Of a DNA stretch of 64,000 bases, positions 15,001 through 18,000 are shown piece by piece. The stretch is from assembly GCA_965637545.1 (NCBI GenBank), contig OZ281494.1:16368001-16432000 (forward strand), written 5' to 3'. The position numbers are program-made. Origin of the DNA: Phallusia mammillata. Lineage: Eukaryota. Position 1 is the first letter of the stretch. Every line of letters begins with the position of its first letter.

Positions 15001-18000
15001 AGTCTAGAAACCAATCAGACTCATTTATACTTTGCTTCGGTCAAATAAAAGTTCAACAAGCAACGTTATTAACTCATATTACATATATACTGTTAACTAA
15101 GACATATAACTGTTAATCTGAAGGTACTAATGAAAAGAATAAACGACCCCTTGACATTTGGTAACCAAAAATACTAAATGAAACATTACTTCTACAAACA
15201 TCTTATTCGGACTTTTATCTCCCTAAGAAAGCAAAAAAAGCAAATTTTTTGCATATCAGTCGCCTTTAGTATAAAAGACACTTGAGAAAATGACAAATTA
15301 TCGTTGGGCCTTATTGCAAGCAATGGCTGACAAACAAAACCGTAATAAAATTCATTTGAAGTAATTATTTTTTCCAGATCGGATAATGCTCCAATAATTA
15401 AAGTAAAATGACCCCATTACTAATATATCTTAATAAGTTTTCATTTTGACAACACAACCTTTCCATTTTTGTTACCAATTTTAACAAAAAATAATAAAAA
15501 GTTGAAAATAAACACTTCTTAATTTGGATTGGTCATGATAATAATTACACATAACTTTCAGGTCCAAAACTTTGTAAATCATTTTAAGTACATATATATT
15601 TTAAAATTACATCAAAACGACAGCTTTTTTTCTGGCACATAAGACAATATGAGCAGTGGGCCTTAATTATTACCTTCCGGGCCTATATACCTTCAGGTAC
15701 CTTAATTTACCTGCACTGGAGTGTTGCTCTGTTGTTTTAACGGAATATAGTTGGTTGTCCAGTTTACTCGAATGGTGTCAGGGTTGCAAGTAGAAGGGCG
15801 GGCGTTAACTGTAACTATAAAAGCAAGTAAATTTATTAAAATAACGCTCAAAGTTGGGTTATAAGTGTTACGAGCTGCACTTATATGGAGAAAACGGTGT
15901 GCACTGTCTGCAGTAAGTTGTTTTTAGATAACTACTAATTAAGTAAACAATATATAAGAACTGAGGATACGTAAAACAAATTAGCTAATTATAACTTGCA
16001 ACCATCGATTATATTATTATTAGTCTTGCAAACAAACACCAGGCAGAAGACTGTTTTCACTTTCACGCCTCCTATGTCAGCGCTTACCAAACTGCTATGT
16101 ATTAGAAATTTTCAATTACCATAGGTTTTGACTATAAACGGAAGCTTTCGTTTTGATAAGTGAATCTAATTGCCTACCTCTGCTCAAGACCTTTTGTGCA
16201 AAATAATAATTTCATAGGGGGCGATTTTGATTCAGAGTCAAGGGGGACGATTCGCAAAAAAGGGTTTAAGACCACTGTATCACAGCGTAGGTAAGTATCA
16301 TCTTTAATATCATGGTTCTTTGTAACTTACATTCTAACTGACAAGCATAATACCCATATACACCAGTACACTGCTTTGTAGTATCTACCCAAGCTTGTTC
16401 ATATTGCAATGCGCTTTGCATGTAATGCGCTGAATCAGGTTGTATTGCTTGATAAGTTTCCACAAAAACTCTAAAAACTGAAGAAAAAAAAACAATAATT
16501 TTCATTTTAGATTTTTTAAATTAATTACTAAAGATTTTCAACAAAACAATTATGAGCTGTATTCGCCATAACGCCAAGATCTTTTCTACTCTTGAACTTG
16601 CCAGGTAAGAACAAAGATTCCCATCTTCTATGGTACGGCGTCGAATTGTTGTCTTTGTTTTTCAACTTCGAAGAACTATCGTTTGCTCGGTAATTAAAAA
16701 CTTCCTTAAATTTTGTAACATCTATACCGCTTCCGCCATACAAAACAAATCCCTGAATCCAACCTGGTGCAGAATTTCCTTGTTGCAAAATTAGGCGGTT
16801 TTCATAACGTGGTACAACTCACCTGATTCATCATTGCAATTTGTTTTTGATGTTATCCACCATCTTTTATTTTTTAAGTGGGCTTGTGTTTTGCAAAATC
16901 TTACCTGGTTCAATCCCGTGCCACTTCTGTAACAATGGTAACATGATATGATATATGTCGTAATTTAACAGCTATTTGCGTACGTTTTATACAAATGAAT
17001 AACTTTTGTAAATTCCTGGGGTTGCGTGGTAAAATATCCCAGTTTTGCTCCACCAATGTTTGATACCCATACTTTCTGTACATCTACAAATAAACAAAAG
17101 CAATTTACTCCTTCCTTGTTAAGGGCGACAAAACGACCTGATTCAATTATTCAAGCGTTTACACTAACCTCCCAAATACATTTTATTCGCAGTGCTAATG
17201 AGTTTTTCATGAACGGCCGGATTGGAAATGTTGGCAATTTGGCCACCTTTTCCAGCACATCTTAATTTTACTGTGTTTCCATCGACAACTTCACTCGACA
17301 ACTGAAATACTTGATTTCCTACATTAAAGATGGAATTGCAAGTTTCTGGTGAAACAAGCAATTGATTAAGTGTGAACCCTGCAAAACCCTGTTCGTTTTT
17401 ATCCTTACCTTGAGTATTAGCTCCGTAAAATAATAACATTAACAACAATAGCACAAATATTTCCATCACACCTCCAACTTACTGTAAAGAAACTCTAAGT
17501 CTCAAAACTGTATGTTCATAACAAGGAAATACTACAAAGGCGTCGGGCATGCTAGCAGTGTTTCGGTCGTCTTGCGTCATTGGACGACGCAACAATATTG
17601 TGTGGTGCGTCATGCACATTCAAAGACATGGCACAAACGGGTATGGTGACTTTTATTCATTGAGGTTGAGACATAAATAACTGTGATTCAGTGGAGTTGC
17701 TCAGTCACGTACTAGAATTTTTCAACCTCACTCATAGTGCCCACCTTTATTTATTGTAAAACAACATTAGAACTTGGCGGTGACAAGTTGCAATAACATT
17801 AGTTTTTAGTAGTGATGCACCGAAGTTTCGGTTGGCCGAAACATTTCGGCCGAATCCGCTGTTTTCCAATGTTTCGGTTTCGGCCCGAACTTTTTTGAAA
17901 ATTCGGCCGAAACCGAACTTTTTTGTTGCATGGAATTAAGGCCTTAAATTTCATTTACGCCCATACGAAACATCAATAATTAACTATTTGTTGTATCTAT

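What the first reader, a model, noticed from the sequence alone, without database searches (positions are those of the whole stretch)
16331..16477. Putative sugar-binding loop is the variable hotspot: QPD matched between P1 and Y, lost in P2 and Z
The 147-nt exon 6 reads QPDSADC..WVD (Y1, Y2), QPDSAHY..WVD (P1), QSGLARR..WTD (P2) and QLGSANC..WMD (Z). QPD is the galactose-type Ca2+ site motif of C-type lectins. Both phosphatase copies have lost the loop Cys by different changes (TAC, CGT), while short-tail genes keep it. Exon 3 is almost invariant by contrast. This fits diversifying selection on ligand specificity.
Basis: partly seen in the sequence, partly recalled or inferred. Interest (0 to 1): 0.65.

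Follow-up and report, generated by a model that had tools for sequence, protein, structure and literature searches.

The report
Variable loop in lectin-like receptor paralogs
Five neighbouring receptor genes share a lectin-like outer domain whose presumed ligand loop differs between copies, but the differences look like a few lineage-specific accidents under relaxed constraint rather than proven selection for new sugar specificities.

Summary
The 147-nt minus-strand exon occurs five times, reading QPDSADC..WVD (Y1, Y2), QPDSAHY..WVD (P1), QSGLARR..WTD (P2) and QLGSANC..WMD (Z).

A C-type-lectin-like domain is moderately supported, exon by exon:
- Exon 2 matches surfactant protein A CRDs (E 0.005) and Lectin_C proteins.
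- Exon 6 matches the last third of a CTLD model, with QPD on the model's E-P-D position.

The selection story is not supported:
- No copy has WND.
- Exon 6 dN/dS is 0.15-0.67, and 0.58-1.33 in the 12-codon loop. The N:S ratio there does not differ from the rest of the domain.
- The loop is the most variable 12-codon window, but only marginally (321 of 5000 shuffles). Exon 4 is nearly as variable.
- The excess of changes is confined to P2, and a +1/-1 compensated frameshift explains QPDS to QSGL.
- Z has a frameshift in exon 4 and Y1 has no ATG.
- QPD in Y and P1 is best read as a retained ancestral state.

The spliced model was not joined, searched or folded.

The parts
16331..16477 (-). P1 exon 6 (147 nt, phase 1): last third of the lectin-like domain
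   Evidence: AG/GT borders and translation. Matches positions 81-118 of a local CTLD model weakly (3.5 bits; 51 of 2000 shuffles reach it).
16419..16454 (-). P1 loop, exon-6 codons 7-18 (YQAIQPDSAHYM): the most variable 12-codon window
   Evidence: Sliding-window count. dN/dS by pair.
16434..16442 (-). P1 QPD codons (CAA CCT GAT)
   Evidence: Read. In Y1 the same tripeptide aligns with the E-P-D position of the CTLD model.
16422..16424 (-). P1 TAC (Tyr) at the position where Y1, Y2 and Z have TGC (framework Cys 2)
   Evidence: In Y1 and Z this Cys aligns with the model's Cys.
16383..16391 (-). P1 WVD, at the place of WND
   Evidence: Motif scan. hhalign puts WVD on WND of P0009.
447..593 (-). 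Y1 exon 6 (QPDSADC..WVD)
   Evidence: CTLD model positions 78-119, 9.0 bits; 2 of 2000 shuffles reach it.
34692..34838 (-). Y2 exon 6 (QPDSADC..WVD)
50121..50267 (-). P2 exon 6 (QSGLARR..WTD); the loop carries a P2-specific cluster of changes
   Evidence: A gapped alignment (+1/-1) beats the ungapped one under all 4 scoring schemes.
27825..27971 (-). Z exon 6 (QLGSANC..WMD)
   Evidence: CTLD model positions 89-119, 7.3 bits; 10 of 2000 shuffles reach it.
17169..17345 (-). P1 exon 2: N-terminal part of the lectin-like domain (first strand, first helix, framework Cys 1)
   Evidence: The exon-2 profile hits surfactant protein A CRDs at E 0.005 and Lectin_C proteins. Local model positions 3-49.
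16984..17083 (-). P1 exon 3 (100 nt), nearly invariant among the five copies
   Evidence: dS 0.05-0.16 against 0.43-0.67 in exon 2.
16823..16926 (-). P1 exon 4; its first half is almost as variable as the exon-6 loop
   Evidence: No PDB match.
16602..16763 (-). P1 exon 5, family-specific, followed by a GC (not GT) donor
   Evidence: No PDB match.
28303..28405 (-). Z exon 4 with a 1-nt deletion inside the Cys codon: frameshift and stop
   Evidence: Alignment A1 and translation.
1553..1604 (-). Y1 exon 1 with ACG in place of the ATG of the other four copies
   Evidence: A stop lies 8 codons upstream with no ATG before it.
9679..12121 (-). P1 tyrosine-phosphatase exons (two domains)
   Evidence: Pfam Y_phosphatase on 4 pieces. 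WPD exon at 11568.
32502..33198 (-). Y2 transmembrane exon and short tail exon with two tyrosine motifs
   Evidence: ORF listing. No family search was made.

Best explanation
Exon 6 encodes the last third of a divergent C-type-lectin-like ectodomain. This part holds the end of the long loop, the last strands and three framework cysteines. The domain also carries about 100 extra residues (exons 3-5) that resemble nothing known.

Five tandem paralogous type-I receptor genes share this ectodomain. P1 and P2 continue into two tyrosine-phosphatase domains. Y2 and Z end in a short tail with tyrosine motifs. Y1's tail lies outside the window.

The 12 codons around QPD correspond to the primary-site loop of C-type lectins and are the least constrained stretch of the domain. 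The pattern across copies comes from a few lineage-specific events under relaxed constraint (inferred):
- Y and P1 keep the older QPD.
- P2 changed in one clustered event, best read as a 1-nt insertion and a 1-nt deletion nine bases apart. That reads QPDS as QSGL.
- Z lost P and D by two point changes, in a copy that now has a frameshift elsewhere.

No copy has a complete canonical Ca2+ site, because the Asn of WND is missing. If the loop binds a ligand, it probably does so in a non-canonical way. P1 and P2 also lack one partner of a framework disulfide, so their loops are not equivalent to Y's.

Shown: the letters, the exon structure, the phosphatase tails, the lesions and the substitution counts. 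Inferred: the fold, the loop's role, the frameshift origin and the direction of change.
For: Lectin-like domain:
- The exon-2 profile hits 5 surfactant protein A CRD sequences among 7 PDB hits (E 0.0049-0.0051).
- Of 9 library hits at E<=0.001, 4 carry Pfam Lectin_C and one is a close 167-aa fragment.
- A CTLD model built from 24 repeats of those 4 proteins places exon 2 on positions 3-49 (E 3e-8 to 2.5e-6) and Y1 exon 6 on positions 78-119. QPD falls on E-P-D, Cys on Cys and W-V-D on l-n-D.
- 2 of 2000 shuffles reach Y1's score and 10 of 2000 reach Z's.
- hhalign puts WVD on WND of P0009 (E 0.04).

Constraint:
- Over exons 2-6, dN/dS is 0.38-0.51 for all non-Y1/Y2 pairs.
- Exon 6 gives 0.15-0.67 and the loop 0.58-1.33.
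- N:S in the loop against the rest gives Fisher p 0.33-1.0.

P2-specific cluster:
- Differences are 13 of 36 against 79 of 633 (Y2-P2), 14 of 36 against 82 of 633 (P1-P2) and 16 of 36 against 114 of 630 (P2-Z). Y2-P1 gives 4 of 36 against 75 of 639.
- In the loop, 11 of 15 variable columns have P2 alone differing.

Frameshift:
- The gapped alignment beats the ungapped one under 4 of 4 scoring schemes, for both Y2-P2 and P1-P2.
- Random-substitution controls reach the gain in 148 and 44 of 3000 runs (Y2) and 28 and 86 of 3000 runs (P1).

Lesions.
Against: - Pfam itself gives no Lectin_C hit on any exon-level piece scanned: 5 P1 pieces and 2 W1 pieces.
- The exon-6 profile finds no lectin in the PDB. 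Its 5 hits are bromodomains and a nickel protein, E 0.29-1.6. With the W copies added it finds none.
- P1 and P2 exon 6 score only 3.5 and 3.6 bits on the CTLD model, and P2's match falls on a different part of the model.
- The CTLD model was built from proteins picked by their likeness to exon 2, so the exon-2 scores on it are partly circular.
- 5 of the 9 library hits do not carry Lectin_C: a cysteine-rich repeat protein, an Ig-repeat protein, DUF7034, LVIVD and the unassigned 167-aa fragment P0004.
- The loop is indeed the top window (16 extra states against 14 for exon 4), and loop dN/dS near 1 is higher than the 0.37-0.50 of the rest. With only four independent sequences, positive selection on a few sites cannot be excluded.
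- The frameshift reading is only suggestive (controls 1-5%).
- Invertebrate lectins with QPD and a non-WND second motif (WRD, WLD, FLD), and one with QPN and WVD, are listed in a review table, and several of them are marked Ca2+-dependent (PMC12842671, passages and table 4 seen). So WVD does not rule out sugar binding.
- Z's and Y1's lesions could be assembly errors.
Confidence: 0.55

Rival explanations
1. The loop is a working Ca2+/galactose site in Y and P1. Ligand-driven diversifying selection has retuned it in P2 and Z, and the phosphatase and short-tail receptors form pairs with matched or deliberately unmatched specificity.
For: - QPD sits at the right model position.
- The loop is the most variable 12-codon window.
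- Loop dN/dS of 0.58-1.33 is above the rest of the domain, 0.37-0.50.
- The position of the WND Asn also takes three states (V, T, M).
- QPD lectins with other second motifs are listed in a review table, and two with FLD are marked as Ca2+-dependent binders of asialofetuin (PMC12842671, passages).
Against: - dN/dS is not above 1 beyond noise, and the N:S ratio is no different from the rest.
- The hotspot statistic is marginal (321 of 5000).
- The excess is confined to P2, and synonymous changes are raised there too.
- No WND in any copy.
- The loop is three residues shorter than the model between QPD and the Cys.
- P1 differs from Y at the neighbouring acidic residue and at the disulfide Cys.
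- Z and Y1 look disabled.
Confidence: 0.2
2. Concerted evolution of a receptor pair. A short gene-conversion tract between Y and P1 copied the loop, as in vertebrate paired receptors, so that QPD is matched by sequence exchange.
For: - The history is mosaic. In the 5' flank to intron 1, P1 and P2 agree against Y at 60 columns, compared with 10 and 5 for the other two patterns. Quartet sites with Z are 36:0:0.
- Over intron 5 + exon 6 + intron 6, Y2 and P1 agree against P2 at 48 columns, compared with 12 and 11. Quartet sites are 16:6:4.
- Intron 5 is 93% identical in Y2-P1, against 81% and 78% for the other pairs.
- A window scan shows the excess over about 300-400 bp.
- Gene conversion between paired receptors is described for the CEACAM and Siglec-5/14 families (PMC5112662, PMC2832619, PMC4042635, PMC7042247: search listing and abstract starts only).
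Against: - Inside exon 6 the Y2=P1 excess comes from the loop alone (11 columns). Downstream of the loop the three patterns are balanced at 4:3:5, so faster change in P2 explains the exon part equally well.
- P1 keeps TAC where Y has TGC.
- Z's introns align poorly (41-56% identity), so the outgroup signal is noisy.
Confidence: 0.15
3. The domain is not a lectin domain in any useful sense, and QPD there is a coincidence in a family-specific fold that binds a protein ligand.
For: - No Pfam hit.
- No PDB lectin hit for exons 4, 5 or 6.
- The domain is about 225 codons long, against about 107 positions of the Pfam model.
- The Atlas hit is only 0.80.
- The distant W copy hits only NK-cell lectin-like receptors in the PDB, at non-significant E 0.12-0.48. 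From recall, those receptors bind proteins rather than sugars.
Against: Exon 2 and exon 6 give colinear matches to the two ends of a CTLD model, with the framework cysteines in register. The proline of the motif may also be kept in the W copies (IPA), though the gap-free alignment sets it one residue off.
Confidence: 0.1

Closest known systems
C-type lectin-like domains (Pfam Lectin_C, PF00059), such as collectin CRDs like surfactant protein A
   Same: - The N-terminal strand and helix with framework Cys 1.
- The C-terminal order [QE]-P-[DN] ... Cys ... W-x-D ... Cys ... Cys.
   Different: - About 100 extra residues (exons 3-5) with two more cysteines and no detectable likeness to anything.
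- No Pfam score on single exons.
- WND is never present.
- The loop between QPD and the Cys is shorter than in the model.
- P1 and P2 lack framework Cys 2.
Invertebrate C-type lectins with non-canonical site-2 motifs (bivalve examples in the review PMC12842671)
   Same: QPD or its variants combined with a second motif other than WND. The review's table lists QPD with WRD, WLD or FLD, and QPN with WVD. The motifs vary among paralogues of expanded families (passages seen).
   Different: Those are mostly secreted lectins of normal domain length. These are type-I membrane receptors with phosphatase or tyrosine-motif tails. No binding data exist here.
Vertebrate paired activating/inhibitory receptors (CEACAM1/3, Siglec-5/14; Ly49 and KIR from recall)
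   Same: Neighbouring genes share an ectodomain and have different cytoplasmic parts. They also show mosaic similarity along the gene.
   Different: The negative arm would be a receptor tyrosine phosphatase itself rather than an ITIM tail that recruits one. Opposing signalling is untested, and the evidence for gene conversion is inconclusive.
Receptor-type protein tyrosine phosphatases
   Same: Single-pass receptors with two Y_phosphatase domains. The nearest named proteins for one exon are RPTPs of animals, at 56-67% identity for the five full-length RPTP hits.
   Different: The named relatives carry FN3, Ig, SRCR, discoidin or carbonic-anhydrase domains in their precomputed Pfam lists. None carries Lectin_C. 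Three literature searches found no paper describing a lectin-domain RPTP.

Membership tests
C-type lectin-like domain (Pfam PF00059 Lectin_C) | Score above the Pfam gathering threshold | tested here: inconclusive
   0 families for the 5 P1 exon-level pieces at E<=10 and for the 2 W1 pieces at E<=1. Only single exons or ORFs were scanned, each a fraction of the domain. The joined model was not scanned.
C-type lectin-like domain (Pfam PF00059 Lectin_C) | N-terminal strand and helix with framework Cys 1, similar to known CRDs | tested here: met
   The exon-2 profile hits surfactant protein A CRDs at E 0.005 (5 of 7 PDB hits). Four of 9 library hits carry Lectin_C; the best, P0002, has E 1.5e-9 and covers query positions 1-52. 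Local model positions 3-49.
C-type lectin-like domain (Pfam PF00059 Lectin_C) | C-terminal framework: Cys 2, W-x-D strand, Cys 3, Cys 4, colinear with the N-terminal part | tested here: met
   Y1, Y2 and Z exon 6 fall on model positions 78/89-119 (9.0, 8.7 and 7.3 bits). Shuffles reach these scores in 2 of 2000 runs (Y1) and 10 of 2000 runs (Z). The match is weak, and P1 and P2 lack Cys 2.
C-type lectin-like domain (Pfam PF00059 Lectin_C) | Compact domain of about 110-130 residues | tested here: not met
   Exons 2-6 hold about 225 codons. Exons 3 and 5 match nothing, and exon 4 gives only a 6.7-bit match to the helix region of the model.
C-type lectin-like domain (Pfam PF00059 Lectin_C) | The CTLD fold | not tested
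No full-length relative was found to fold in its place.
Ca2+-dependent galactose-type carbohydrate-recognition domain | QPD at the EPN/QPD position | tested here: met
   Met in Y1, Y2 and P1. Not met in P2 (QSG) or Z (QLG).
Ca2+-dependent galactose-type carbohydrate-recognition domain | WND, whose Asn and Asp bind the Ca2+ of site 2 | tested here: not met
   WVD (Y1, Y2, P1), WTD (P2), WMD (Z). Aligned with WND of P0009.
Ca2+-dependent galactose-type carbohydrate-recognition domain | Acidic Ca2+ ligand in the loop shortly before framework Cys 2 (its position is recalled) | tested here: inconclusive
   Y has Asp directly before the Cys. P1 has His, P2 Arg and Z Asn. The loop is 3 residues shorter than the model, so the equivalence is unclear.
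Ca2+-dependent galactose-type carbohydrate-recognition domain | Ca2+-dependent binding of galactosides | not testable with these tools
   Needs expressed ectodomains and glycan arrays with and without Ca2+.
Sites under diversifying selection | dN/dS above 1 at the loop, beyond the background of the domain | tested here: not met
   Loop dN/dS is 0.58-1.33 with 3-11 non-synonymous and 1-5 synonymous changes per pair. Fisher p is 0.33-1.0 against the rest. Power is low, with four independent sequences.
Paired receptors (shared ectodomain, opposing tails) | Neighbouring genes with homologous ectodomain and transmembrane segment but different cytoplasmic parts | tested here: met
   Y2 against P1 over exons 2-6 gives dN 0.098. 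The transmembrane exons are homologous. P1 has phosphatase exons and Y2 and Z have a tyrosine-motif tail.
Paired receptors (shared ectodomain, opposing tails) | Opposing signalling and a shared ligand | not testable with these tools
   No expression, ligand or signalling data.
Receptor-type protein tyrosine phosphatase (P1, P2) | Y_phosphatase domains after a transmembrane segment | tested here: met
   For P1, 4 pieces hit PF00102 at E 2.8e-15, 3.4e-9, 4.5e-12 and 3.7e-13. For P2, membership rests on 89-98% DNA identity and the same WPD exon; P2 was not scanned in Pfam.

The most novel reading that the evidence does not exclude
An invertebrate paired-receptor system. A receptor tyrosine phosphatase and short-tailed receptors with ITAM-like tyrosine motifs share one lectin-like ectodomain in a tandem cluster. 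Their ligand loop is retuned copy by copy, in P2 by a compensated frameshift, under pressure from microbial or symbiont glycans. The phosphatase arm would act directly as the counterweight, a role that ITIM receptors fill in vertebrates by recruiting phosphatases.
Probability: 0.15. Interest if true: 0.7.

Novelty: new variant of a known kind. Interest (0 to 1): 0.4.

Why it matters
The sure part is ordinary. Paralogues of a lectin-like receptor differ most in the loop where such domains usually meet their ligand, and the data do not show selection.

Two things deserve follow-up. First, the family itself is unusual. It has a lectin-like domain with a large insert, no close relative in the protein libraries searched, and either phosphatase or tyrosine-motif tails. 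I found this architecture in none of three literature searches.

Second, there is a methodological point. A loop that looks hypervariable codon by codon may come from one compensated frameshift. That inflates both dN and dS and can mimic a selection hotspot.

Tried and rejected
Searches that gave nothing useful:
- Pfam on P1 exon-level pieces and W1 pieces: no lectin hit.
- PDB profile searches: exon 6 gave only bromodomains and a nickel protein at E 0.29-1.6. Exon 6 plus the W copies gave nothing. Exon 5 and exon 4 gave nothing meaningful.
- ESM Atlas on Y1 exon 6: best score 0.80, with Lectin_C clusters at ranks 2 and 3. The tool itself says this level is a lead only.
- Word-index protein searches: exon 6 against longer proteins, and the P1 exon-6 ORF against proteins of similar length, found no candidate.
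- The exhaustive profile search with exon 2 gave 9 hits. Five of them do not carry Lectin_C. Four of those five look like chance or repeat-summed matches, and the fifth is the close fragment P0004.
- hhalign of the exon-6 alignment against P0002 gave an off-register match at E 0.29.
- A phosphatase exon was searched to place the organism. The best named hit (67% identity) is an octocoral RPTP, but hits came from flatworm, mammal, bird, ray, fungus and mussel too. The taxon remains unsettled.
- Literature searches for a lectin-domain RPTP and for compensatory frameshifts in paralogues gave nothing usable.

Readings considered and set aside:
- A clean Y-to-P1 conversion tract covering QPD. The site map shows that the exon part of the signal is P2's own cluster.
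- Independent against shared loss of the loop Cys in P1 and P2. The ungapped reading favours two separate changes, and the gapped P1-P2 alignment keeps TAC out of frame in P2. This cannot be decided.

Steps that failed or were not made:
- The look-up of cluster members and names for P0002, P0004 and P0009 could not be made.
- A first attempt to find exon borders by pattern matching failed and was replaced with alignment columns.
- One search did nothing.
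Full report
**Scope.** The window is 64,000 bases, has no N and is about 36% G+C. Its genes have spliced, invertebrate-style structure, and I do not take the contig for human. Fold-level statements below are therefore inferences from single exons.

The exon at 16331-16477 lies on the minus strand between an AG acceptor and a GTAAGT donor. It is read in phase 1. The straight frame-1 translation of the interval has stops, and the correct frame starts two bases in. The repeat finder gives five copies of the unit, and tblastn inside the window finds exactly five.

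| Copy | Coordinates | Loop and second motif |
|---|---|---|
| Y1 | 447-593 | QPDSADC..WVD |
| P1 | 16331-16477 | QPDSAHY..WVD |
| Z | 27825-27971 | QLGSANC..WMD |
| Y2 | 34692-34838 | QPDSADC..WVD |
| P2 | 50121-50267 | QSGLARR..WTD |

Twenty-seven of the 48 residues are invariant, namely the flanking strand (FRVFV) and the C-terminal C-x-GVYGYYACQ.

**Gene models.** Alignment of the five loci (A1) gives six exons upstream of a seventh FN3-like exon:
- exon 1, the signal peptide
- exon 2, 177 nt
- exon 3, 100 nt
- exon 4, 101-104 nt
- exon 5, 162 nt
- exon 6, 147 nt

Downstream of P1 there is a transmembrane exon and two sets of phosphatase exons. Four pieces hit Pfam Y_phosphatase at E 2.8e-15 to 3.4e-9. 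P2's tail is 89-98% identical and has the same WPD exon. Y2 and Z have a homologous transmembrane exon, then a short last exon with two tyrosine motifs. Y1's tail lies beyond the window's start.

The whole arrangement is a tandem duplication of about 34 kb, with 1-24,000 matching 34,247-57,000. Identity falls from 98% to about 80% along it, and Z lies between the two units. Another lectin-like gene pair, which I call W, lies between Y and P in each unit.

Y1 has ACG where the four other copies have the start ATG. A stop lies eight codons upstream with no ATG before it, and the next in-frame ATG would remove the hydrophobic core of the signal peptide. Z has a 1-nt deletion inside a Cys codon of exon 4, which runs into a stop. 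Its exons 5 and 6 are still open in the old frame. P1's intron 5 has a GC donor.

**Is it a C-type lectin-like domain?** Pfam gives nothing on single exons. The exon-2 profile of the five copies does better:
- It hits five surfactant protein A CRD sequences among its seven PDB hits (E about 0.005).
- It gets nine hits at E<=0.001 in 1.84 billion representatives. Four of these are multi-domain Lectin_C proteins, and the best of them (E 1.5e-9) covers query positions 1-52. One is a 167-aa close fragment without a family. Four are unrelated repeat or bacterial proteins.

From 24 CTLD repeats of the four lectin proteins I built a local model and searched each exon peptide separately. Exon 2 of all five copies falls on positions 3-49 (E 3e-8 to 2.5e-6). 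This is partly circular, because the proteins were picked by their likeness to exon 2. Exon 6 of Y1, Y2 and Z falls on positions 78/89-119, at 9.0, 8.7 and 7.3 bits.

In that exon-6 alignment QPD lies on the model's E-P-D and the loop Cys on the model's Cys. W-V-D lies on l-n-D, and the last two cysteines are in register. Shuffled exon-6 peptides reach these scores in 2 of 2000 runs (Y1) and 10 of 2000 runs (Z). P1 and P2 score only 3.5 and 3.6 bits, and P2's match falls elsewhere on the model.

Three further results point the same way, though each is weak:
- hhalign puts WVD on the WND of a canonical QPD/WND repeat (E 0.04).
- The W copies are 33-38% identical to exon 6. One of them hits only NK-cell lectin-like receptors in the PDB, at non-significant E 0.12-0.48.
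- The Atlas gives Lectin_C clusters at a weak 0.80.

Against this, the exon-6 profile alone finds no lectin in the PDB. Exons 3 and 5 resemble nothing, and exon 4 gives only a 6.7-bit match to the model's helix region.

My reading is that this is a CTLD-superfamily domain with an insert of about 100 residues. Its two ends are recognisable and its fold is untested.

**Is it a galactose-type Ca2+ site?** QPD is in the right place in Y1, Y2 and P1. The Asn of WND, which a review describes as a direct Ca2+ ligand (PMC12842671, passages), is V, V, V, T or M here. The stretch between QPD and the Cys is three residues shorter than in the model. The residue before the Cys is Asp only in Y.

The same review lists invertebrate lectins with QPD plus WRD, WLD or FLD, and one with QPN plus WVD. 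Several are marked Ca2+-dependent, and the review calls the EPN/QPD rule simplified. Sugar binding is therefore neither supported nor excluded.

P1 and P2 lack the Cys that aligns with framework Cys 2, but they keep its presumed partner after W-x-D. Their loops are therefore structurally different from Y's, even where QPD matches.

**Is the loop a hotspot under diversifying selection?** I ran Nei-Gojobori counts per exon, dropping split codons and pooling only the counts.

| Region | dN/dS (non-Y1/Y2 pairs) |
|---|---|
| Exons 2-6 | 0.38-0.51 |
| Exon 6 | 0.15-0.67 |
| Loop, codons 7-18 of exon 6 | 0.58-1.33 |
| Domain without the loop | 0.37-0.50 |

- The N:S ratio in the loop does not differ from the rest (Fisher p 0.33-1.0).
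- Using Y2, P1, P2 and Z, variable codons number 25 of 58 (exon 2), 6 of 32 (exon 3), 17 of 31 (exon 4), 17 of 53 (exon 5) and 21 of 48 (exon 6).
- The top 12-codon window is the loop, with 16 extra states. Exon 4 codons 5-17 reach 14. A shuffle of per-site values reaches 16 in 321 of 5000 runs.
- The density of nucleotide differences in the loop is raised only in pairs that include P2 (p 1.6e-4 to 4.3e-4). It is not raised in Y2-P1 (4 of 36 against 75 of 639), and not significantly in Y2-Z or P1-Z (p 0.12 and 0.069).

**What happened in P2.** In the loop, 11 of 15 variable columns have P2 alone differing. An alignment with a 1-nt insertion after CAG and a 1-nt deletion nine bases later turns the QPDS codons into the QSGL codons with one further substitution. 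That is three events in place of five substitutions. This alignment beats the ungapped one under all four scoring schemes tried, for both Y2-P2 and P1-P2. Random-substitution controls reach the same gain in 148 and 44 of 3000 runs (Y2) and 28 and 86 of 3000 runs (P1), so the result is suggestive and no more. A frameshifted stretch raises dN and dS together, and that is what is seen.

The P1-P2 alignment also allows a second indel pair that keeps TAC out of frame in P2. If that is right, the Cys was lost once and not twice. The ungapped reading favours two separate changes. This stays open.

**Why QPD matches in Y and P1.** The history along the gene is mosaic:
- From the 5' flank to intron 1, P1 and P2 agree against Y at 60 columns, compared with 10 and 5 for the other two patterns. 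Quartet sites with Z are 36:0:0.
- From intron 5 to intron 6, Y2 and P1 agree against P2 at 48 columns, compared with 12 and 11. Quartet sites are 16:6:4.
- Inside exon 6 the excess is the P2 loop cluster. Downstream of it the three patterns are balanced at 4:3:5.

The simplest reading is that Y and P1 retain an older state. A short conversion tract, as described for vertebrate paired receptors (PMC5112662, PMC2832619, PMC4042635, PMC7042247; search listing and abstract starts only), remains possible.

**Exon 3.** Its synonymous divergence is also low (dS 0.05-0.16 against 0.43-0.67 in exon 2). That points to homogenisation or to constraint on the nucleotides themselves, and not only to protein-level constraint.

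**Relatives and literature.** No close relative of exon 6 was found in the protein collection. The only close relative of exon 2 is one fragment. The look-up of names for the library hits could not be made. A phosphatase exon finds animal RPTPs, best 67% to an octocoral protein, and none has Lectin_C in its precomputed domain list. Three literature searches found no description of a lectin-domain receptor phosphatase.

**Verdict.** The claim of a canonical galactose site is weakened, and the claim of diversifying selection is not supported by the tests that four sequences allow. The receptor cluster as a whole is the more interesting object.

Noticed in passing
window 3800-8503 (-) and 38000-42800 (-): A second lectin-like receptor gene pair (W1, W2) lies between Y and P in each duplication unit. 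Its last lectin exon is 33-38% identical to exon 6, with IPA and WKM in place of QPD and WVD. It has its own transmembrane exon and the same kind of tyrosine-motif tail.
   Followed up: partly
window 1602-1604 (-): Y1 has ACG where Y2, P1, P2 and Z have the start ATG, with no upstream in-frame ATG. Y1 and Y2 differ by 4 non-synonymous changes and 1 synonymous change in exons 2-6.
   Followed up: yes
window 28303-28405 (-): Z exon 4 lacks one base inside a conserved Cys codon and so runs into a stop. All other Z exons are open in the expected frame, so this is either a recent loss or an assembly error.
   Followed up: yes
window 16600-16601 (-): P1 intron 5 starts with GC followed by AAGT, instead of the GT of the four other copies.
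   Followed up: no
window 32700-32810, 25695-25850 and 3829-4017 (-): The last exons of Y2, Z and W1 share a tail of the form G-D-[DG]-G-Y-E-[TS]-V-D-I ... Y-[IM]-[NK]-T-A-P: two tyrosine motifs six residues apart after an acidic-glycine lead. From recall this resembles ITAM or hemITAM tails, but no search was made.
   Followed up: no
window 1-24000 and 34247-57000: A tandem duplication of about 34 kb whose identity falls stepwise: 98% over the first 7.5 kb (Y, W and the 3' side), 89% over the next 7 kb, and 77-95% beyond. This suggests partial homogenisation or layered duplication rather than an uncollapsed haplotype.
   Followed up: partly
window 14771-15702: P1 carries about 930 bp between exon 7 and the next exons that Y2 and P2 lack at the matching place. 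The content was not examined.
   Followed up: no
window 16984-17083 and its four copies: Exon 3 is conserved at synonymous sites too (dS 0.05-0.16), and the conservation extends 13-14 nt into both introns (repeat family D7, 91-100%).
   Followed up: partly
window 16823-16926 and its copies: The C-terminal half of exon 4 (W-W-I-T-S-K-T-x-C-N) gives a weak match to the first-helix region of the CTLD model (6.7 bits). This hints that the insert may be a remnant of a second lectin-like repeat.
   Followed up: no
window 9679-10533 (-): The second phosphatase domain of P1 keeps a C-x5-R signature, but with Cys rather than His before the catalytic Cys. This was read by eye from the ORF listing.
   Followed up: no
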